Source: an uncultured Candidatus Saccharibacteria bacterium
GTDB lineage: Bacteria; Patescibacteriota; Minisyncoccia; Portnoybacterales; UBA2143
NCBI GenBank assembly: GCA_964649795.1
Contig: CAZYQY010000002.1
Span: 1-61,659, forward strand
Direction of reading: 5' to 3'
DNA: 61,659 nucleotides
Shown: positions 6,605 to 61,507 of the stretch, piece by piece
Position numbering within the stretch: the stretch's first letter is position 1
Layout: each line of letters begins with the position of its first letter
The notes under the pieces: generated by a model
Database searches by the model: none
The model's input: the letters and a program-made list of their open reading frames with translations, nothing else
What the model was told of the DNA's origin: nothing
Program-made: the position numbers and the translations under genes

Positions 6605-8800
6605 TTATTTAGTAGAATCTCCTAAAATAGAAGTAGGAGGAGCAATTTCTTCCTTTTTAGAGTCACAGTTGGGACAATCTGAGTCTAATCCTTCTTTCCC
6701 CTTAGTAGTTAATACTTCTTTTTCCCTTGACCCACTGCGATAAACAGTAAATGCTTTGCATCCTGACTGCCATGCCAATTGTATTACTTTTTCAACGTCA
6801 AACCTGGTAGTTTCATTAGGAAGATTAATAGTTTTAGAGATGCTATTATCTAAATGCTTTTGAAAAGCAACTTCCATCTTTATATGATCCTTTGGATCAA
6901 TATCCATTGAACCGACAAAAACTTTTCTAATATTTTTAGGAATCTCTTTTATATTCTGAACAGTTCCTTCTTTATAAATCCTATCAATTATTTTAGGAGA
7001 GTATAGTCCTTTTTCTCTAAGTTTTTTTTCTAAATAATGATTGACATAATAAAATTCCTCTTCTCCCATTATTTGTTGTTTGGTATAAGCTAAAGCAAAA
7101 TAAGGCTCTACGCCAGAAGAAACTTCTGGAATCATAGAGATAGTCCCCGTAGGAGCAATACAAGTAAGAGCGGCATTACGCATCTTAATTTTCTTCTTTT
7201 TCCAAATACTCAATTCGTAGTTAGGGAATACTTTCTTTTCATTGGCTAATTTTTGAGAAGTTGCATGAGCAGTTTGATTTATAAATTTCATTATTTTCTC
7301 TGCTGTTTCAAAGCCTTGTTCTGAATTATAAGGAATTTCTAATTGGAAAAGGAAATCAGCAAAACCCATTATTCCTATGCCAATTCTACGATTTTTCTTG
7401 AACATGCTATTTGTTCTGTCTATGGAGAATTCTGTAAGATCTATAACATTATCTAGCATTCGGGTAGCCAATTCAACCGCTTCTTTTAATCTTCCCCATT
7501 TAATTTTTTTATTTTCAACAAATTTGTCTAGATTAACAGAACCTAAATTGCAGACATCTCCGTCATGTAAAAATTGCTCTCCACATGGATTAGACGCCTC
7601 AATTTTTCCTAGTCCGGGCAAAGGATTAGTTTTATTAACCTTATCAATGAATATTATTCCAGGCTCTCCGTTAATCCAAGCATTATTGGCAATTTCAGCC
7701 ATAACTTCTCCAGGAGTAATTTTAATATCTTGAATTTGAGAAATTTTTTCATATCTATCTCTAATTATCCTTCTTGGCAGCATTTTTTTACCGTTAAATT
7801 GACACATCCACGGTTCTTCAGAATTATTCTTTACTTTTCTCATAAAATCATCCGTTAAAGAAATGGAGATATTAAAATTAGAGAGTTCGCCTTCTCTGTC
7901 TTTAGCATGAATAAAATCCAAAATATCTGGGTGGTCTATTCTCATTATTGCCATGTTTGCTCCGTGTCTGCCTTGCTGTTTAATAACGCCAAAAGCTTTA
8001 TCATATACATTCAAAAAAGAAATCGGACCAGAGGCAACGCCTTGAGTTCTCTTTGTTAATGAACCAGCTGGCCTAAGAAGATGGAAAGGGAATCCTATTC
8101 CAGAACCGCTTTGCTGCAATAGCGTAGCATCTCGAAGCGTATTAAAAATATCATTCATGCTGTCTCCAATATGCAGAACTACACAATTAGAGATCACTGG
8201 CATAGATGTGCCAGTATTAGTTAAGGTTCGTCCAGCCGGCAAAAATTCAAGATTAGACATTAATTGATAAAATTCATCTTGCCATTTTTTTATCTCTTTA
8301 GCAGATTTTCCGTATTTCTTTTCTACTTCAGCTATTGCTTTAGCAATTCTTTTGAACATTTCTTCTGGATTCTCAATAACTTTTCTTGTTTTGGGGTCTT
8401 TTCCTAAATACCTGCCAGCTAAAATTTTTAAAGAATTTAAACTTAAATGAAGTTGCGTACTCCTGCCATTTAGAATTCTTTCTCTCTCTTCCCTAATCCT
8501 TTGATGCTCTTTGCGGTAAATAATATATGATTTTGCTGAATCAATATAGTTTTCTTTCATTAAAGCAATTTCTACAATATCTTGAATATTTTCTACATCT
8601 GGGATATTTTTCTTATTTTTAAAAACTTTATTTAATCCATTAACCACTTGATCAGATATATTTTTAGCAACTTTCGAATTAAATTCTCCAGTAGCTTGAC
8701 CAGCGGCTAAGATAGCTTTGGTTATTCTGTTTTGTTCGAAACTAACAATACGACCATCTCTTTTTTTAATTTTATTAAACTTCATTTTTGTATTAGACAT
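6605..8800 (-). CDS. nrdJ: Adenosylcobalamin-dependent (class II) ribonucleotide reductase with N-terminal ATP-cone
   Basis: ATP-cone (KIKKRDGRIVSFEQNRI), SNPCGEQFL...CNLGSVNL active-site region, and a C-terminal CPNC redox pair. Confidence 0.8.
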   Translation of the reverse strand: MSNTKMKFNKIKKRDGRIVSFEQNRITKAILAAGQATGEFNSKVAKNISDQVVNGLNKVFKNKKNIPDVENIQDIVEIALMKENYIDSAKSYIIYRKEHQRIREERERILNGRSTQLHLSLNSLKILAGRYLGKDPKTRKVIENPEEMFKRIAKAIAEVEKKYGKSAKEIKKWQDEFYQLMSNLEFLPAGRTLTNTGTSMPVISNCVVLHIGDSMNDIFNTLRDATLLQQSGSGIGFPFHLLRPAGSLTKRTQGVASGPISFLNVYDKAFGVIKQQGRHGANMAIMRIDHPDILDFIHAKDREGELSNFNISISLTDDFMRKVKNNSEEPWMCQFNGKKMLPRRIIRDRYEKISQIQDIKITPGEVMAEIANNAWINGEPGIIFIDKVNKTNPLPGLGKIEASNPCGEQFLHDGDVCNLGSVNLDKFVENKKIKWGRLKEAVELATRMLDNVIDLTEFSIDRTNSMFKKNRRIGIGIMGFADFLFQLEIPYNSEQGFETAEKIMKFINQTAHATSQKLANEKKVFPNYELSIWKKKKIKMRNAALTCIAPTGTISMIPEVSSGVEPYFALAYTKQQIMGEEEFYYVNHYLEKKLREKGLYSPKIIDRIYKEGTVQNIKEIPKNIRKVFVGSMDIDPKDHIKMEVAFQKHLDNSISKTINLPNETTRFDVEKVIQLAWQSGCKAFTVYRSGSREKEVLTTKGKEGLDSDCPNCDSKKEEIAPPTSILGDSTK

Positions 8801-13338: not shown

Positions 13339-13826
13339 ATTTTAAAAATTCATTCAAAAGTCAAAGAGCAAAAGACCAATGACCACACTACTATAGAAAC
13401 AGCAAACTGCCAGAATAGTAGGCGTAGGCACCAGCCAAGTAAACCGTATTGTCGAAGTAGAGCTTGTCGTCGAAAGTCTGGAAGCCGAACGAATAGAACG
13501 AGATATTTAAGAAAGAAGAAGTTGATTGAGAATAAGGTTGTTAATCAATAGGTTAATTGCTAAACTCAACACGAAAGTAGGCTACTGCACCTTGGTTCAA
13601 GGATCGAGGTCGCCGAAATCCTAAGTCTCTAAAATTGCCAGAATCATAGTAATTACGGTTGCTATGAGCGCGCAAGAGAGATTTTAGATACTACTTACTG
13701 GTTCTTAGGGCGGGTGTCTTTTTTGGCTACCGCCAGATTAAATACAGGAAGCTTGAGTATATAGGTCACCTTAGGCGACAGTAACCCTCTGCTTCCAGTG
13801 GTAATAGACGAGAATCAGTAAAATTA

Positions 13827-13951
13827 CGGTTCCCGCTACAAGCATTCGGATAAGGTGCCGAATGTCTACCTCAACGACGACAAGCCGAAGCTCAACTGAA
13901 ACAACGCTGACAACTCGAATGACAAGTGGGGTTCCGCCTCGTGCCGTAGTC
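13827..13951 (+). repeat. DGR template repeat (TR)
   Basis: Aligns without gaps over 125 nt to the reverse complement of 15722-15846. 21 of 23 mismatches fall on TR adenines. An in-frame TGA occurs where VR has TGC. Confidence 0.85.
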
Positions 13952-13974
13952 TCTAAAATCAGAATTTACAAAAA

Positions 13975-13995
13975 AGCGTCCAATTGGAGGACGCT
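13975..13995 (-). terminator. Terminator immediately after the avd stop codon; also the hairpin following TR on the plus strand
   Basis: agcgtcc-aattgga-ggacgct: a 7-bp stem. Six T residues follow on the minus strand, and tttt follows on the plus strand. Confidence 0.65.
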
Positions 13996-13996
13996 T

Positions 13997-14356
13997 TTAG
14001 TTTAGGGATCTAATCCAGCCTCCGAGCATTCGGCCGATTTCCTGAATCTTTTCTTCCAGATTTAGGTATTTTTTATTATCCAGCATCTTAAACTCTCGAG
14101 CCATTCTAAGTAAAACTTTTAAAAGGTCAAATTTGTTATTCGCTTCTAATAGTTTTGCTTTTTTCTCTTGCTTATACGAGCTAACTGCGGATAATATCAA
14201 TTCCATAAAATCAATGATATTTTCTTCGCATTTCTTGCCCAACACATATTGATCCTTTTTAGGAAAGATTTTTAAACACTCATAGAACTCCTTGTAAAGA
14301 TCAGTTGTCTTTTTGAGGATTGGCGCCTCGCTTTGAATTTGGTTTAAATTTTGCAT
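13997..14356 (-). CDS. avd: DGR accessory variability determinant (Avd-like four-helix-bundle protein)
   Basis: 119-aa helical protein. LYKEFYECLKIFPKKDQYVLGKK and a C-terminal IGRMLGGWIRSL match the Avd / 23S-IVS four-helix-bundle family. Adjacent to the DGR RT and TR. Confidence 0.75.
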   Translation of the reverse strand: MQNLNQIQSEAPILKKTTDLYKEFYECLKIFPKKDQYVLGKKCEENIIDFMELILSAVSSYKQEKKAKLLEANNKFDLLKVLLRMAREFKMLDNKKYLNLEEKIQEIGRMLGGWIRSLN

Positions 14357-14358
14357 AT

Positions 14359-15409
14359 ATGAAGATTTATAAAGACATTTTTAAGGATATAATTTCAATG
14401 GAGAATTTGCTTTTGGCTTGGGATGAATTTAAAAAGGGCAAAAGAGAGAAACAAGATGTTCAGGAATTTGAGCTTCATCTAGAGGATAATCTGTTTGCCC
14501 TCCACCAAGAATTAAAAAGCAAGAAATACAAGCATGGCGACTATGTTGGTTTTTATATCAACGACCCAAAGAGAAGGCATATCCACAAAGCAACGGTCAG
14601 AGACAGAGTCGTCCATCATGCTATTCATCTAAAACTCTATCCTATTTTTAATCCGACCTTTGTTTACACCTCCTATTCATCCCGCAAAGAAAAAGGGACC
14701 CACCGGGCAGTTATTAAACTGGATAAAATGTTAAGGGCTGTTTATCAGACCCACGGCAGATGTTCTGTCTTAAAGTGTGATATTAAGAAGTTCTTTCCAA
14801 CTATTGATCATAAAGTATTAATGAAAATTATTGCCAAGCGGATTAAAGATAAAGATGCTTTGTGGTTGATAAAAAAGATTGTCAAAAGCTTTGAGTCGGA
14901 ATTTACCACCAAGAGAGATAAAAAAAGGAACCCCAATTGGCAATTTGACTTCTCAAATTTTGGTTAATATTTATATGAATGAAATGGATCAATTTATTAA
15001 AGACCAGCTTAAAGTTAAATATTATGTCCGCTACGCTGATGATTTTATTGTTGTTCATCATGCCCAGGATTATTTGCTGAGTTTGAAAGGTCAGATCGAA
15101 TCTTTTCTCAAAAAGAATCTAAAACTATCACTTCATCCGGGCAAAGTCACTATTCGTAAATACTACCAAGGGATTGATTTCTTGGGTTATGTAATCTTGC
15201 CTAAAGCCATTGTCTTAAGAACTAAAACTAAACAGAGAATTTTTAGGAAATTGAGACAAAGAGTAAAGGAATATAAACAAGAAAAAATAGATGAGAAAAC
15301 CTTCCTGCAATCGTTTAATTCTTATCTGGGAGTATTGAGTCACGCCAAGAGCTACAAGTTTGAGCAGGAATTAAAACACAAAATGTGGGAGTGGCTTAAA
15401 GAAGATTGA
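14359..15409 (+). CDS. DGR-type reverse transcriptase, reading frame interrupted at an A7 run (14920-14926)
   Basis: Joins ORFs 14320-14967 and 14879-15409. The probable start is the ATG at 14359 (MKIYKDIF...). Motifs seen are FFPTIDH, GTPIGNLTSQ (the DGR-specific IGxxxSQ), YVRYADDFIVV (YADD) and GIDFLGY. Removing one A at 14920-14926 restores ...RDKKGTPIGNLTSQ... Confidence 0.85.
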
Positions 15410-15436
15410 AATAAAAAAAGGGACAGCCGAGACCTG

Positions 15437-15560
15437 CTGCCCACATTGACTGAAACCCCAAAGGGCCCCAATTGTGGAGGACCAGCTGCCCCTTTCAGTC
15501 CACAATTGGACTAAAAAGAAACAACGGCCCATTGGTGGTATTCCCAATCAATGTAGGCAG
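15437..15560 (+). ncRNA. Candidate structured RNA element downstream of the RT (function unknown)
   Basis: GC-rich non-coding block. A closing helix ctgcccacattga / tcaatgtaggcag pairs at 12 of 13 positions. There is a perfect 10-bp ccaattgtgg / ccacaattgg pairing. It is interleaved with aaaggg / cccttt, which has pseudoknot topology. Confidence 0.3.
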
Positions 15561-15599
15561 CGCTTTTATTGTACTATAAAGATTATTAAAAATAAAGAA

Positions 15600-15623
15600 G
15601 GGTAGATCATTTTTGATCTACCC
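15600..15623. terminator. Bidirectional terminator between the RT and the convergent target gene
   Basis: gggtagatca-tttt-tgatctaccc: a perfect 10-bp stem with T-rich flanks on both strands. Confidence 0.75.
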
Positions 15624-15713
15624 TTTAAGTGCGCGTTTAGCGCAAAAATTTGTAGCGGTCGCCTTCGGCGAAAACAAGGAACAAGAAACCAAAAGGTCCA
15701 AAGTGTCAAGAAC

Positions 15714-16445
15714 CTAAGCCCGACTACGGCACGAGGCGGAACCCCACCTGCCATCCGAGTGGCCAGCGTCGTCGCAGTCGAGCTCCGGTCCGCCGTCGTC
15801 GAGGAAGACACTCGGCACCAAGCCCGAAAGCCTGTAGCGGGAACCGGTGCTCCAGAGATGATGATCTGATAACACATTCGTGTGAACACAAACAGCGATG
15901 TCTTCGTCGGTGATATGGCGCAGACGGTTTTGCTTTTTGATGATCTTTTCGGCGTCTTCGGGTGATTTACCGAGAGTGGCTTTCCCGGGCTCAACATCGT
16001 AGATATAATACGGATTTTTTGGGATTTCTTCTTCATTGTCGGTTATCTCGTTCGGATCAAGGTAGGTGTAGCCCATCTTGTCGTCATTGCGGACCATGGG
16101 CATAAGTCCATAGATGCCCATATAGGAACGGGGGATGACTGGCACGAACGGAATGTTTCCTTCGGGAACTTCCATTTCGGCCGCTTTGGATAAAACCTCG
16201 CTTTTTTTGTTCTGGAACGCTTCCAGAATGGCCTGTGGGCAGTTCCATGATTTCAGGGTTTCCATCTGGTTGTCAAACAGCTTGGCCAGTCCGTTCTTGC
16301 GGTCTTCAATCGTTTCGGCGTTGGCCTGTTTTTTGGCCTCGGCCACCACATCATCGATTACCTCGGCTCCCAGACCTTTGAAAAAAGCCGTTAGCTTGGC
16401 AATCAATCCTTCGCGCTGATCTTTGCACAAATCTTTCTTTGTCAT
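15714..16445 (-). CDS. DGR target (variable) protein with C-terminal VR
   Basis: 243-aa ORF, visibly GC-richer than its surroundings. It has a strong SD (aaaggagg). The last ~42 codons are the VR matching TR. Confidence 0.8.
   Translation of the reverse strand: MTKKDLCKDQREGLIAKLTAFFKGLGAEVIDDVVAEAKKQANAETIEDRKNGLAKLFDNQMETLKSWNCPQAILEAFQNKKSEVLSKAAEMEVPEGNIPFVPVIPRSYMGIYGLMPMVRNDDKMGYTYLDPNEITDNEEEIPKNPYYIYDVEPGKATLGKSPEDAEKIIKKQNRLRHITDEDIAVCVHTNVLSDHHLWSTGSRYRLSGLVPSVFLDDGGPELDCDDAGHSDGRWGSASCRSRA
15722..15846 (-). repeat. DGR variable repeat (VR) at the 3' end of the target gene
   Basis: See the TR feature. Encodes GSRYRLSGLVPSVFLDDGGPELDCDDAGHSDGRWGSASCRS. The 3'-terminal 26 nt are identical to TR (IMH-like). 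Confidence 0.85.
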
Positions 16446-16531
16446 GACAAACCTCCTTTGCTGGGTTTTAGTTTATTCTAAAAAATATTCCTATTTCAAT
16501 GTTCAAAATTCGTCAAATTTATCTTGCTGCT

Positions 16532-16560
16532 AATATATCACAATGCGATACTTTTGTCAA
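16532..16560 (-). promoter_or_regulatory. Sigma70-type promoter of the DGR target gene
   Basis: Minus strand reads TTGACA-17 nt-TATATT, about 85 nt upstream of the start codon. Confidence 0.5.
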
Positions 16561-50872: not shown

Positions 50873-51646
50873 ATGGAAAGTATGGTGAGCCACACCCTGT
50901 CGGTGCACAACGAACACGAATTTTTACTGAAAATGGAGAAGGCGGGTCTTTCTGAAGAACTTGCCCAGAAGGTCATTGACTCAAATGGCAACGAACTCGC
51001 CCAAAAAGTAGTCAGATTCATTCAGAACGGCGGTTTTGAGCCGACAACCAGCCAGAAGCGCACTCGTGAAATCATAGGTCAGAATTTCTTCGGTGTCGAA
51101 GAGGCCATCCAGCATTTCGGAGTTAACCCAACCCGTCAGCAAACACTTGCTTTGTCGGAGGTTCCTTTTTCTGAAGAAGTACTTCAGAAGGCAAGGGATA
51201 CTCACGCTCTGATGGCGGTCTTCCCGCTTTCGATTCTCGAGATTCGCGGCAAGGTTGAGCGAAAGCTTTTTTACGGCTATGAAGATGCTTGGTATAACAA
51301 GCAAGCATTTGCCAAAGAGCGTGGTGAGACAAGCTGGCAACTGGTTCGCAAAACACCAGTGAACAATTCAACCTCGAAAAACTGGGAAGAGCAACAAGCT
51401 CTTATTTCGAAAGAGGACGAAGTCCCGACTCCCCAAGTGATGGTCTATACCATTATTGGTCATTACCTGGCTACTGGCGAGCGTCTGTTCGAGCACATTT
51501 ATGTCCGTACGTCATTTGTAGTTTCGGACGGCTTCCGCGTCTACGTCGGCAGCTTCGATTCGGATGGTCTCTCTGTCGGCAGCTACTGGGATGACCGCCG
51601 TGAGGGCGGCTTGGGCGTCTCGTCCGCTCGGAAGTTCCCCGCATAA
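50873..51646 (+). CDS. DGR-target-like protein paralog (no cognate TR found in this window)
   Basis: GC-rich 257-aa ORF with an aaaggagg SD. The C-terminus GFRVYVGSFDSDGLSVGSYWDDRREGGLGVSSARK parallels the VR segment of the 15714-16445 protein, including a similar ending (GSASCRS vs GVSSARK). Confidence 0.65.
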   Translation: MESMVSHTLSVHNEHEFLLKMEKAGLSEELAQKVIDSNGNELAQKVVRFIQNGGFEPTTSQKRTREIIGQNFFGVEEAIQHFGVNPTRQQTLALSEVPFSEEVLQKARDTHALMAVFPLSILEIRGKVERKLFYGYEDAWYNKQAFAKERGETSWQLVRKTPVNNSTSKNWEEQQALISKEDEVPTPQVMVYTIIGHYLATGERLFEHIYVRTSFVVSDGFRVYVGSFDSDGLSVGSYWDDRREGGLGVSSARKFPA

Positions 51647-51834
51647 ATCACGAAGTGATTTTGCGGGATAAATTGAATCCTGAACCCTTAAAATTTTGTT
51701 CCTTTTGATAACTTGAGCCTTCGGCGATATTTTCGTTGAGGGCTCTTTTCTTTCCCTAAGATTTCCTATAAAATATAAATGTCTGCTAATGAAGGTTGGA
51801 CCACGGTTTAACCTCGCGGACGTCTCATCTTTGA

Positions 51835-52032
51835 GATATCGCCAGAGTATCGTTGTTTACGGATAACGATAGCGTGCGACAAAAGATGGAGATTGAACTT
51901 CTTAAGGGAATAATCAGCCAAGAAATTCTTGAGCAATCGTTTCAGTCCTACATGGGCGTTCTTTCTCATGCTGATACTTATAAATTGGGACAGGAACTGA
52001 AAAATCAATTCTGGTTTTGGCTTAACAAATAG
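51835..52032 (+). pseudogene. Fossil C-terminal fragment of a second DGR-type reverse transcriptase
   Basis: The open frame translates to ...VRQKMEIELLKGIISQEILEQSFQSYMGVLSHADTYKLGQELKNQFWFWLNK*. This is collinear with the RT C-terminus LRQRVKEYKQEKIDEKTFLQSFNSYLGVLSHAKSYKFEQELKHKMWEWLKED*. No finger or palm motifs lie upstream. Confidence 0.6.
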
Positions 52033-54547: not shown

Positions 54548-54580
54548 GAAGCAAGGACGTCATTTTAAGGACGATGCCTC
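54548..54580. repeat. Left 33-nt inverted repeat bracketing the TA/nuclease cassette
   Basis: gaagcaaggacgtcattttaaggacgatgcctc matches the reverse complement of 56408-56440 at 32 of 33 positions. Confidence 0.7.
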
Positions 54581-56407: not shown

Positions 56408-56440
56408 GAGGCGTCGTCCTTAAAATGACGTCCTTGCTTC
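56408..56440. repeat. Right 33-nt inverted repeat bracketing the TA/nuclease cassette; part of a 63-nt hairpin (56408-56470)
   Basis: gaggcgtcgtccttaaaatgacgtccttgcttc. The segment also folds back on tcattttaaggacaagcctc at 56451-56470. Confidence 0.7.
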
Positions 56441-61403: not shown

Positions 61404-61507
61404 GAGGCGCGTCCTTAAAATACATACCCTTGCCAACGATACTCTTTAAATAATAGTCAATCATCTAAACTCAGATGGAAAGGGTATGTATTTTAAGGAC
61501 GCGCCTC
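61404..61507. repeat. Long hairpin repeat (perfect 28-bp arms, 48-nt loop), same family as the 54548 and 56408 repeats
   Basis: gaggcgcgtccttaaaatacataccctt ... aagggtatgtattttaaggacgcgcctc. Shares the core gaggcgYgtccttaaaat with 56408-56426. Confidence 0.7.

What the first reader, a model, noticed from the sequence alone, without database searches (positions are those of the whole stretch)
13827..15846. Diversity-generating retroelement: 125-nt TR/VR pair with adenine-restricted mismatches
TR (13827-13951, plus strand) aligns without gaps to the coding strand of the last ~125 nt of the minus-strand gene 15714-16445 (VR, 15722-15846).

My base-by-base hand alignment gives 23 mismatches:
- 21 sit on adenines of the TR sense strand, changed to G, T or C in VR.
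- The two exceptions are TR T13851 vs C and TR G13884 vs A.

Further details fit a DGR:
- The 3'-terminal 26 nt (gtggggttccgcctcgtgccgtagtc) are invariant, like an IMH.
- TR has an in-frame TGA where VR has TGC, so TR is a non-coding template.
- The variable TR codons are mostly AAC/AAG/AAT/GAC.
- Between the repeats lie an Avd-like four-helix-bundle gene and an RT with the DGR-diagnostic IGNLTSQ motif plus YADD.

DGRs are known in CPR lineages. This target has no obvious signal peptide, and its VR (...WGSASCRS) does not resemble the common GGSWNN-type C-type-lectin VR consensus.
Basis: partly seen in the sequence, partly recalled or inferred. Interest (0 to 1): 0.85.

Follow-up and report, generated by a model that had tools for sequence, protein, structure and literature searches.

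The report
CPR-type DGR with broken reverse transcriptase
This is a real diversity-generating retroelement of the layout typical of candidate-phyla-radiation bacteria. In this strain its reverse transcriptase is frameshifted and its variable region looks frozen. Its relatives point to a template RNA whose priming domain sits upstream of the template instead of downstream.

Summary
TR 13827-13951 (+) matches the reverse complement of VR 15722-15846 without gaps, with 23 mismatches, 21 at TR adenines (P = 5e-13).

Between the repeats lie an Avd gene (NCBIfam DGR-Avd equivalog) and an RT closest to the Bordetella phage DGR RT. The cassette has the known CPR layout TR-(avd)-RT, Wu et al.'s architecture B3.

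The target is a 243-aa DUF5701 protein with no signal peptide. Its C-terminal domain is predicted with high confidence and weakly resembles C-type lectin folds.

- The RT carries one extra A in an A-run (14920-14926), splitting the ORF. Orthologues are intact.
- The VR is identical in seven assemblies and in diverged alleles, whereas sister lineages differ only inside the VR. This copy is probably inactive.

Beyond the finding:
- A 254-nt leader directly 5' of TR is a covarying structured RNA conserved across the clade.
- One leader strand pairs with the TR 3' boundary.
- The next leader strand pairs just upstream of TR.
- This mimics the primer and stop duplexes of the BPP-1 spacer RNA, but circularly permuted.

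An 8-nt periodic YTTGR array follows every VR. A second, deleted DGR relic lies at 50.9-52.0 kb.

The parts
13538..13566 (+). Putative promoter of the TR RNA: TTGTTA, 17-nt spacer, TG-C-TAAACT (extended -10). The predicted start is near 13573.
   Evidence: Read from the sequence. A TGnTAnAnT-like element sits at the same distance upstream of the conserved leader start in most of the nine type-A loci, although the surrounding sequence is not conserved (alignment). It falls below the threshold of the consensus scan. Inferred, not shown.
13573..13826 (+). Conserved structured leader of the TR RNA, proposed here as a spacer-like domain:
- P1 13580-13614
- P2 13635-13675
- J2 13679-13694
- P3 13695-13705 paired with 13811-13821
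- P4 13710-13733
- P5 13747-13796
   Evidence: - Homology with the L007 and L009 cassettes starts exactly at 13573.
- nhmmer finds the leader directly 5' of TR in about 44 loci of the RT clade.
- RNAalifold on 32 sequences gives 52 pairs, 41 with compensatory changes. On full-length RNAs it gives 66 pairs, 53 compensatory.
- No Rfam family matches, even at E <= 5.
13679..13694 (+). J2, the proposed primer-like strand (AGATTTTAGATACTAC). G13680-A13688 pairs with 13952-13960, and A13690-C13694 pairs with 13946-13950.
   Evidence: - Cognate versus permuted duplex energies: z = -6.2, 0 of 20000 permutations as low.
- The single-sequence MFE fold of 13573-14003 recovers the helix (z = -3.67).
- Pair count on a gapless, independently anchored alignment: 80.3% of cells paired vs 62.8 +/- 1.9 shuffled (0/500); covariation score 0.51 vs 0.21; slid registers reach at most 48%.
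13827..13951 (+). Template repeat (TR), 125 nt, 34 adenines, with an in-frame TGA at 13897-13899.
   Evidence: In 26 loci the TR/VR homology starts a median of 4 nt after the P3 3' strand. It ends a median of 4 nt after the invariant G that pairs with the last J2 base.
13946..13960 (+). TR 3' boundary (GTAGTC|TCTAAAATC), which pairs with J2.
13972..13998 (+). P6: a 10-bp hairpin between an A-run and a U-run. It is a likely bidirectional terminator of the TR RNA and of avd, and a possible Avd-binding stem-loop.
   Evidence: MFE fold. All 11 consensus pairs are kept across 26 loci, with strong covariation (columns 504-533). Handa et al. report stem-loops just downstream of TR in 207 DGRs.
13997..14356 (-). 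avd, 119 aa, on the strand opposite to TR and RT.
   Evidence: Pfam bAvd 1.8e-23. NCBIfam DivGenRetAVD 92.6 bits, cut-off 80. PHROG 'Avd protein of DGR'.
14359..15409 (+). DGR reverse transcriptase, disrupted by a 1-nt insertion in the A-run 14920-14926. Frame 1 stops at 14967. The rest of the enzyme, including IGNLTSQ and YADD, is in frame 2.
   Evidence: -.
- DNA alignment with the intact orthologues L007 and L009 shows one extra A.
- The repaired protein aligns end to end with them, 90% and 79% identity.
- The same frameshift is seen in the independent assemblies L001 and L006.
- The best solved relative is 8ub7, the BPP-1 bRT.
15598..15625 (-). Intrinsic terminator of the target gene.
   Evidence: 12-bp stem followed by a T-run. 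Conserved in type-A loci.
15675..15720 (-). Array of about six YTTGR-like motifs with an 8-nt period, directly after the VR and stop codon. Candidate target-site element.
   Evidence: In 46 loci there are 3.4 motifs per 70 nt downstream of VR, against 0.5 downstream of TR, 0.53 in background and 0.49 +/- 0.09 in shuffles. Spacing peaks at 8 nt. Its function is inferred only.
15722..15846 (-). Variable repeat (VR), encoding residues about 201-241 of the target.
15714..16445 (-). Target gene: a 243-aa DUF5701 protein, with an N-terminal helical part and a C-terminal domain that holds the VR.
   Evidence: - Pfam PF18959 43.3 bits, cut-off 27.4.
- 110 homologue clusters share the scaffold TGSRY..VP.V.L....P.L.W.....S...WGSASCRSR.
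- 1140 representatives in the 50% library.
- AlphaFold2: pLDDT 92 for the whole protein and 94.8 for the domain.
16532..16560 (-). Promoter-like site of the target gene (TTGACA, 17-nt spacer, TATATT, with TG), at the edge of the conserved cassette.
   Evidence: 11 of 12 consensus matches. Homology with L007 ends at 16560.

Best explanation
The locus is a chromosomal DGR cassette of about 3 kb (13573 to about 16560) with the CPR-typical architecture TR-(avd)-RT. Its single target gene lies downstream and converges on the RT.

Shown:
- A TR/VR pair with adenine-specific differences.
- A bona fide Avd.
- An RT of the DGR type.
- A DUF5701 target whose C-terminal 41 residues are the VR.

Also shown: in this strain the RT has a 1-nt insertion in an A-run. 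The VR is invariant across assemblies and across diverged alleles. In sister lineages with an intact RT, alleles differ only inside the VR. The element therefore worked in the recent past and is now most likely inactive or nearly so.

Order of events, inferred: the TR mutated TGG to TGA, and at least one homing event followed, because the VR has TGC at that codon. Later came the TR change C13851T, the VR change at 15789 and the RT frameshift.

Mechanism when intact, inferred from covariation and by analogy with the BPP-1 cryo-EM structure:
1. A transcript of about 430 nt (13573 to about 14000) carries a structured 254-nt leader, TR, and a terminal hairpin.
2. Leader strand J2 pairs with the last nucleotides of TR and its 3' flank, forming a template:primer-like duplex. 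Reverse transcription would start next to it, around C13945.
3. The contiguous strand P3 pairs with the nucleotides just 5' of TR, forming a stop-like duplex that ends the cDNA.
4. The spacer function that lies 3' of TR in BPP-1 is thus supplied from the 5' side. This would explain how avd can sit antisense between TR and RT.
5. The adenine-mutagenised cDNA replaces the VR. The VR-specific 8-nt YTTGR array may help mark the recipient site.
For: DGR identity:
- Adenine-restricted mismatches (P = 5e-13).
- Avd.
- RT closest to bRT. The repaired RT is collinear with intact orthologues.
- The architecture TR(+)-avd(-)-RT(+) is shared by about 80 related loci, with A-biased TR/VR pairs in most. It equals architecture B3 of Wu et al..

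Inactivity:
- One extra A relative to L007 and L009.
- The same sequence appears in independent assemblies, with 100% identity over the VR in six further contigs.
- Cluster members P0111 (about 13 N-terminal substitutions) and P0112 keep an identical VR. Clusters of P0002 and P0005 vary only in the VR.
- TR T13851 is derived: it is C in the orthologous TRs and in this VR.
- A second cassette in the window has lost TR, avd and most of its RT, so no intact RT is seen in these 61.7 kb.

RNA model:
- Leader covariation.
- J2:TR helix.
- P3 and J2 bracket the TR/VR homology in 26 loci.
- In BPP-1, Sp 47-56 pairs with TR 117-129 and primes at A56, and Sp 59-70 pairs with the 11 nt upstream of TR (bioRxiv 10.1101/2023.10.23.563531).
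Against: - No read-level data were available, so a minority of diversified VRs or of A6 RT alleles in the population cannot be excluded.
- An A7 run followed by AGG could allow some +1 ribosomal or transcriptional slippage.
- The assemblies that share the frameshift may come from one site and one clonal population.
- The RNA model rests on covariation and analogy only. The priming nucleotide, the 5' and 3' ends of the transcript and any binding by RT-Avd are untested.
- The register of the J2 helix is less regular in some type-B subclades (8 of 14 pairs in L081, L116, L059 and L073).
- Handa et al. state that CPR DGRs have elements downstream of TR. This is compatible with P6 but was not examined for this clade.
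- The CLec fold assignment of the target is weak (best Foldseek E = 1e-2).
Confidence: 0.8

Rival explanations
1. The DGR is still active. The RT frameshift is bypassed by +1 ribosomal slippage on A-AAA-AAA-AGG, or by transcriptional slippage on the A7 run. This would give low, perhaps regulated, RT levels.
For: The frameshift sits in a homopolymer of seven A followed by AGG, and runs of this kind are known slippage sites (my own knowledge of programmed frameshifting and transcriptional realignment). Both RT halves are otherwise free of stops and 90% identical to an intact orthologue, so the lesion is recent or tolerated. Only 2 of 23 mismatches are off adenine.
Against: No relative uses such a site: the orthologues L007 and L009 read through in frame at the corresponding A-run, and the 80 related RTs gave a single near-full-length tblastn match where the contig allows. 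The VR is identical in all assemblies and in alleles that diverged elsewhere, unlike in sister lineages. The TR has drifted since the last homing event.
Confidence: 0.13
2. The conserved leader is not a spacer-like priming domain. It would instead be another kind of RNA element: for example a regulatory 5' region or riboswitch that controls TR RNA synthesis or stability, or the 3' UTR of the upstream target gene in type-B cassettes. The J2:TR pairing would then serve folding or attenuation rather than priming.
For: There is no sequence similarity to the BPP-1 spacer or to any Rfam RT motif. In type-B loci the leader lies between the target gene and TR. Handa et al. place the conserved elements downstream of TR in many DGRs, CPR included.
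Against: The leader is found only next to TRs of this RT clade, in both target arrangements. J2 and P3 are contiguous, and together they bracket exactly the segment that is copied into the VR. This is the topology of the primer and stop duplexes of BPP-1. Only about 20 nt and one hairpin lie between TR and the antisense avd, which leaves no room for a 140-nt spacer.
Confidence: 0.2
3. The RT frameshift is an assembly or sequencing artefact in a homopolymer, and the gene is intact.
For: Homopolymers are error-prone on some platforms. The assemblies that share it may derive from related samples.
Against: Two further assemblies from different JGI samples carry the identical A7 (L001 and L006). 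The frozen VR is independent evidence for loss of activity.
Confidence: 0.05
4. The repeat is an ordinary partial gene duplication or pseudogene fragment that happens to lie beside a retroelement.
For: None beyond the existence of a repeat.
Against: Mismatches are confined to one base of one copy (P = 5e-13). The same TR/VR relation recurs in dozens of related cassettes. VR-only variation is seen among sister alleles.
Confidence: 0.01

Closest known systems
CPR diversity-generating retroelements with architecture B3, TR-(avd)-RT (Wu et al. 2018, PMC5758913; 'DGR clade 2' of Roux et al. 2021, PMC8144416; Paul et al. 2017)
   Same: - Same gene order and strands: TR, reverse-oriented avd, RT.
- Patescibacteria hosts.
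- Chromosomal location.
- A small target without a transmembrane segment or recognisable functional domain.
- A VR that fits none of the CLec1-3 or Ig classes.
   Different: - This copy has a frameshifted RT and a frozen VR.
- The target family can now be named (Pfam DUF5701) and modelled.
- I did not find the 5' structured leader, its pairing with the TR boundary, or the YTTGR array mentioned in the papers I could read. Paul et al. 2017 could not be read.
Bordetella phage BPP-1 DGR (mtd-avd-TR-Sp-brt) and its RT-Avd-RNA particle (PDB 8ub7 series; bioRxiv 10.1101/2023.10.23.563531)
   Same: - RT homologous over its full length (E = 2e-40), with I/LGxxxSQ and YxDD.
- Avd.
- Adenine mutagenesis, with the VR at the C-terminus of the target.
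- Proposed RNA logic of two adjacent duplexes: one between a non-template strand and the 3' end of TR, one between the following strand and the nucleotides just 5' of TR.
- A stem-loop just 3' of TR.
   Different: - Here the non-template strands lie 5' of TR rather than in a 140-nt spacer 3' of TR.
- avd is antisense and sits between TR and RT.
- No IMH/IMH* difference inside the repeat.
- No GC-rich cruciform directly after the VR. Instead there is an 8-nt periodic YTTGR array, with a small hairpin about 55 nt away.
- The target is cytoplasmic-looking rather than a phage tail fibre.
C-type-lectin-fold DGR variable proteins (Mtd, TvpA, AvpA, TaqVP) and the Ca-free CLec variant Bd2740 (PDB 8oks)
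   Same: - The VR forms the C-terminal strands and loops of a compact alpha/beta domain.
- The best Foldseek match of the model is Bd2740 (probability 0.97-1.0, TM 0.64 on the target), a CLec variant likened to Mtd (PMC10769870).
- Much of the rest of the hit list is C-type lectin domains.
   Different: - No hit reaches E <= 1e-3.
- No solved DGR variable protein appears among the top 50.
- No FGE-sulfatase or DUF1566 Pfam match.
- The scaffold motif is ..WGSASCRSR rather than ..GGSW..N..GFR.
Rfam RT-10 motif, the spacer RNA between TR and RT of BPP-1-like DGRs (Weinberg et al. 2017, PMC5737381)
   Same: A structured non-coding RNA adjacent to a TR, proposed to prime reverse transcription.
   Different: It lies on the other side of TR. 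There is no detectable match to RT-10 or any other RT motif in Rfam 15.

Membership tests
Diversity-generating retroelement (DGR) | Two near-identical repeats whose differences fall almost only on adenines of one copy (TR) | tested here: met
   21 of 23 mismatches at TR adenines, P = 5e-13
Diversity-generating retroelement (DGR) | Reverse transcriptase of the DGR lineage (closest to bRT; motif 4 [LIV]GxxxSQ; YxDD) | tested here: met
   8ub7 (bRT) at E = 2e-40, against 2e-24 for the best group II intron RT. PIGNLTSQ aligns with bRT PIGSLTSQ, and YADD with YMDD. A full phylogeny was not built.
Diversity-generating retroelement (DGR) | Intact RT open reading frame | tested here: not met
   A 1-nt insertion in the A-run 14920-14926 relative to intact orthologues. 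It is reproduced in the independent assemblies L001 and L006.
Diversity-generating retroelement (DGR) | Accessory variability determinant (Avd) | tested here: met
   NCBIfam NF033474 DivGenRetAVD, 92.6 bits, cut-off 80. Pfam bAvd.
Diversity-generating retroelement (DGR) | VR at the 3' end of a protein-coding target, with TR adenines in codon positions 1 and 2 | tested here: met
   The VR covers residues about 201-241 of 243. The TR codons AAC, AAG, AAT and GAC are in the ORF frame.
Diversity-generating retroelement (DGR) | Ongoing diversification of the VR in populations | tested here: not met
   At the level of assembled consensus sequences, the VR is identical in seven assemblies and in diverged alleles P0111 and P0112. 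The feature is met in sister lineages, where clusters of P0002 and P0005 vary only in the VR. Read-level data are not testable with these tools.
Diversity-generating retroelement (DGR) | IMH/IMH* pair and a GC-rich hairpin directly downstream of the VR, as in BPP-1 | tested here: not met
   The last 26 nt of TR and VR are identical, and the flanks diverge at once. The nearest small hairpin, CGCCGAAGGCG, is about 55 nt away. Wu et al. find the repeat in only 34% of DGRs, so this is not disqualifying.
Diversity-generating retroelement (DGR) | Spacer RNA between TR and RT that primes cDNA synthesis (BPP-1 type) | tested here: not met
   TR is followed by about 20 nt, a terminator-like hairpin and the antisense avd. 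There is no Rfam RT-motif match. A covarying domain 5' of TR has the equivalent pairings.
CPR-type DGR, architecture B3 (Wu et al. 2018) | Order and orientation TR-(avd)-RT | tested here: met
   TR on +, avd on -, RT on +. The same holds in about 80 related loci. Definition.
CPR-type DGR, architecture B3 (Wu et al. 2018) | Host in Patescibacteria/CPR | tested here: inconclusive
   The nearest cassettes and target homologues are in MAGs labelled Patescibacteria, Parcubacteria or Saccharibacteria. The window's own taxonomy was not determined with marker genes.
Pfam DUF5701 (PF18959) | Score above Pfam's gathering threshold | tested here: met
   43.3 bits against 27.4, residues 75-218 on profile positions 20-169 of 206. 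All but two of the 110 homologue clusters are pre-annotated PF18959.
C-type lectin fold DGR variable domains | VR-bearing domain adopts the CLec fold | tested here: inconclusive
   The model is confident (pLDDT 94.8, pTM 0.91). The best Foldseek hits are the CLec variant Bd2740 (E 1e-2 to 4e-2, TM 0.64) and many CTLDs at E 0.4-3. None reaches E <= 1e-3, and there is no sequence-level hit.

The most novel reading that the evidence does not exclude
In the whole CPR clade of TR-(avd)-RT elements, the DGR RNA is a circular permutation of the BPP-1 DGR RNA.
- The primer strand (J2, ending in an invariant C, C13694 here) and the stop-duplex strand (P3) sit in a roughly 250-nt structured domain 5' of TR.
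- cDNA synthesis would be cis-primed from that upstream domain, start a few nucleotides inside the 3' end of TR, and end at P3.
- An 8-nt periodic YTTGR array that follows every VR, but no TR, would replace the IMH/cruciform as the recipient-site mark.

Neither feature appears in the literature I could search or in Rfam.
Probability: 0.5. Interest if true: 0.7.

Novelty: new member of a known kind. Interest (0 to 1): 0.5.

Why it matters
As an element it is ordinary: one more CPR DGR, and a decaying one.

It is still useful in three ways:
1. It links a named but uncharacterised Pfam family (DUF5701, about 1100 clusters at 50% identity) to DGR targeting. It also gives a confident model of a small, apparently cytoplasmic variable domain. 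This bears on the open question of what CPR DGR targets do.
2. The frozen VR beside a broken RT, set against sister lineages that vary only in the VR, is a natural on/off comparison for DGR activity.
3. The comparative set it opened suggests how DGRs with an antisense avd between TR and RT prime and terminate cDNA synthesis: from a structured domain upstream of TR. It also points to a new VR-flanking repeat.

Both proposals can be tested directly with an intact orthologue, and both matter for engineering DGR-based mutagenesis systems.

Tried and rejected
- **Alternative reading frame of the VR end.** It reads ..VGFRLVP*, reminiscent of canonical CLec VRs. I considered a frameshifted CLec target. 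I rejected this because WGSASC(R/G)SR is conserved in 110 homologue clusters.
- **Sequence searches of the target.** A profile search against PDB sequences gave only a spurious four-helix-bundle hit for the N-terminal part. NCBIfam, PHROGs and PADLOC gave nothing for the target. No paper mentions DUF5701.
- **Fold searches.** The viral library (BFVD) gave no significant match.
- **Rfam.** Searches at the gathering threshold and at E <= 5 gave nothing in the cassette.
- **TR search near other DUF5701 genes.** Most of the 30 genome loci found with the target profile have no TR or similar RT within 5 kb. They were uninformative on architecture: the DGR may lie elsewhere, or contigs end.
- **RNAalifold on full-length RNAs.** It did not call the J2:TR helix, because MAFFT put the two strands out of register. 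I therefore counted it on an independently anchored gapless alignment.
- **Programmed frameshift in the RT.** Considered and judged unlikely, because relatives are in frame.
- **Paul et al. 2017.** The paper could not be read.

Full report
**1. Observation**

I aligned 13827-13951 (+) with the reverse complement of 15722-15846. The alignment is ungapped, with 102 of 125 identities and 23 mismatches.
- 21 mismatches fall on the 34 adenines of the plus-strand copy.
- The probability of at least 21 of 23 mismatches landing on adenines by chance is 5e-13.
- The pair is the longest inverted repeat in the window.
- Its identical 26-nt 3' end is found nowhere else in the window.
- Homology stops abruptly on both sides.

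**2. Genes**
- avd (13997-14356, minus strand) matches Pfam bAvd. It exceeds the curated cut-off of NCBIfam's DGR Avd equivalog.
- The RT is split into two ORFs in different frames.
- DNA alignment with two close orthologous cassettes shows one extra A in the run 14920-14926. These cassettes are L007 from a Patescibacteria MAG and L009.
- With one A removed, the protein is collinear with both orthologues, at 90% and 79% identity.
- Its best solved relative is the Bordetella phage DGR RT, 8ub7, at E = 2e-40. Group II intron RTs (2e-24) and the chains the PDB names as retrons (5e-5 or worse) score worse. PIGNLTSQ and YADD align to the bRT motifs.

**3. Target**
- The 243-aa ORF 15714-16445 (minus strand) is a Pfam DUF5701 protein.
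- It has 110 homologue clusters at 90% identity, nearly all about 240 aa, from Patescibacteria-type MAGs and metagenomes.
- It has 1140 representatives at 50% identity.
- All share the C-terminal scaffold TGSRY..VP.V.L....P.L.W.....S...WGSASCRSR, with hypervariable positions in between. This fixes the reading frame and shows the family is a habitual DGR target.
- There is no hydrophobic N-terminus (maximum Kyte-Doolittle 19-residue mean 1.07).
- AlphaFold2 gives pLDDT 92 for the whole protein and 94.8 (pTM 0.91) for residues 90-243.
- Foldseek against the PDB puts the C-terminal domain of Bdellovibrio Bd2740 first (E 1e-2 to 4e-2, TM 0.64). The authors describe that domain as a Ca-free C-type lectin variant comparable to Mtd (PMC10769870).
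- Many classical C-type lectin domains follow at non-significant E-values.
- I read this as a divergent CLec-like domain, not proven. It fits the prediction by Roux et al. that uncharacterised CPR VR domains are new CLec variants.

**4. Is it active?**

Six further contigs from other samples carry exactly this target gene. All are 100% identical to the window wherever they overlap, VR included. The two that reach the RT have the same A7.

The 90% cluster tells the same story:
- One allele with about 13 substitutions in the N-terminal part and one with a single substitution both keep an identical VR.
- The sister clusters behave in the opposite way. P0002 versus P0113/P0114 (the L007 lineage, intact RT) and nine members of the P0005 cluster are identical or nearly so outside the VR. 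They differ at many VR positions that correspond to adenine-containing TR codons.

The family's DGR therefore diversifies in nature, but this strain's copy appears frozen.

The TR itself has drifted:
- T13851 is C in the orthologous TRs and in this strain's VR.
- The TGA codon is TGG (the conserved Trp) in the orthologous TRs.
- Because the VR has TGC at that codon, at least one homing event followed the TGG-to-TGA change. After that change, faithful copying would have truncated the protein.

I cannot exclude low-level rescue by slippage on the A7-AGG site. No relative uses such a site, however.

**5. Cassette and clade**
- Homology with L007 and L009 runs from 13573 to about 16474-16560, with unrelated flanks.
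- The conserved stretch includes a strong promoter-like site for the target (16560-16532) and its terminator (15625-15598).
- A metagenome scan with the RT returned 80 loci at 49-80% identity.
- All loci that are long enough show TR(+)-avd(-)-RT(+).
  - In RTs of 59% identity or more, a DUF5701 target converges downstream (type A, as here).
  - In the others, the target lies upstream on the TR strand (type B), mostly from other families.
- This is architecture B3 of Wu et al., reported for 90% of CPR DGRs.
- The lack of membrane or known domains in CPR targets is also on record.
- As an element the finding is thus a new member of a known kind.

**6. The template RNA**

The 254 nt between 13573 and TR are more conserved than the proteins.
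- An nhmmer profile finds the same leader directly 5' of TR in about 44 loci of both types.
- RNAalifold on 32 leaders gives 52 pairs, 41 with compensatory changes.
- On 26 full-length RNAs it gives 66 pairs, 53 compensatory, including an 11-bp terminal hairpin between an A-run and a U-run.

The unpaired stretch J2 (13679-13694) is complementary to GTAGTC|TCTAAAATC, which spans the TR 3' boundary (13946-13960).
- The complementarity recurs with different sequences in other subclades.
- Cognate pairs are more stable than permuted pairs (z = -6.2, 0 of 20000).
- The MFE fold of the 431-nt RNA finds the helix unaided.
- On a gapless alignment, 80% of cells pair against 63% in shuffles and at most 48% in slid registers. 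That alignment is anchored only on the P3 start and a conserved G. Twelve of 14 pairs show double changes.

J2 is contiguous with P3, whose partner strand ends a median of 4 nt before the first TR/VR-homologous base. The homology ends a median of 4 nt after the G paired to the last J2 base.

In the BPP-1 particle, the spacer downstream of TR forms a template:primer duplex with the 3' end of TR. An adjacent stop duplex forms with the nucleotides just upstream of TR. The same two duplexes in the same order are formed here by a domain upstream of TR.

I therefore propose a circularly permuted DGR RNA. This is inference from covariation and analogy. No Rfam family matches, and I found no description in the papers available.

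**7. Recipient site**
- The TR and VR flanks differ from the first base after GTAGTC.
- Downstream of the VR and stop codon, 46 loci carry 3.4 YTTGR motifs per 70 nt. The comparison values are 0.5 after TR, 0.5 in background and 0.5 in shuffles. Spacing peaks at 8 nt.
- In the window the array is at about 15675-15720.
- Its role is unknown. I suggest it marks the recipient.

**8. Other things seen**
- A second DGR relic lies at 50873-52032. It consists of:
  - a type-B target with a VR-like C-terminus;
  - its YTTGR array and hairpin;
  - a leader remnant (P1, P2 and J2) fused to the last roughly 55 codons of an RT.

  The TR, avd and most of the RT have been deleted.
- A conserved extended hairpin of about 140 nt with its own terminator lies on the minus strand at 15421-15562 in one subclade.
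- The target gene is 47-57% G+C in a 30-38% background. This is unexplained.

**9. Verdict**

The element is a CPR-type DGR, probably inactivated. Its main value lies in what its relatives show about the RNA and the target site of this class.

Noticed in passing
window 50873-52032 (+): A second, decayed DGR of the same RT clade.
- The target-like gene 50873-51646 is 60% identical to type-B DGR targets in L053 and L045, with a VR-like C-terminus.
- It is followed by a YTTGR array and a hairpin.
- A leader remnant at 51778-51893 (P1, P2, J2; nhmmer E = 1e-6) is fused to a 59-aa ORF (51853-52032), which is the C-terminal end of an RT.
- TR, avd and most of the RT are deleted.
   Followed up: partly
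window 15421-15562 (-): A conserved extended hairpin of about 140 nt (MFE -74.5 kcal/mol). It has a promoter-like TATAGTACAAT upstream and a terminator (15442-15421). It lies between the target terminator and the RT stop. It is present in the window, L007, L009, L010, L015 and L048, but not in other type-A cassettes. Only 6 pairs show double changes, because the sequences are too similar. Possibly a small RNA gene.
   Followed up: partly
window 15675-15720 (-); 46 related loci: An 8-nt periodic array of YTTGR motifs immediately after the VR and stop codon. It is about 7-fold enriched over background and absent after TR.
   Followed up: yes
window 15714-16445: The whole target gene, not only the VR, is 47-57% G+C. 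RT, avd and the neighbouring genes are 30-38%. No explanation was tested.
   Followed up: no
window 14354-14361: The avd and RT start codons are divergent and only 2 nt apart, so each promoter must lie inside the other gene. Relatives show the same near-overlap.
   Followed up: no
window 15093, 15431, 15490 (ends of contigs L002, L005, L003/L004): Independent assemblies of the same strain break inside the RT or the intergenic hairpin element. This may reflect strain heterogeneity or repeats there.
   Followed up: no
window 54548-54580 / 56408-56440 and 61404-61435 / 61476-61507: Two pairs of 32-33-nt inverted repeats, each 97% complementary, share the core GAGGCG.CGTCCTTAAAAT.
   Followed up: no
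L009 5598-5722 vs 7499-7620: The orthologous cassette L009 has a 3-nt insertion (GCC) in the VR relative to its TR. All 20 substitutions are at TR adenines.
   Followed up: partly
L021 3603-4304 and 5001-5724; L018 2315-2941 and 5001-5729: Some genomes carry two DUF5701 paralogues near each other, with no TR or related RT within 5 kb. This suggests multi-target or remote DGRs.
   Followed up: no
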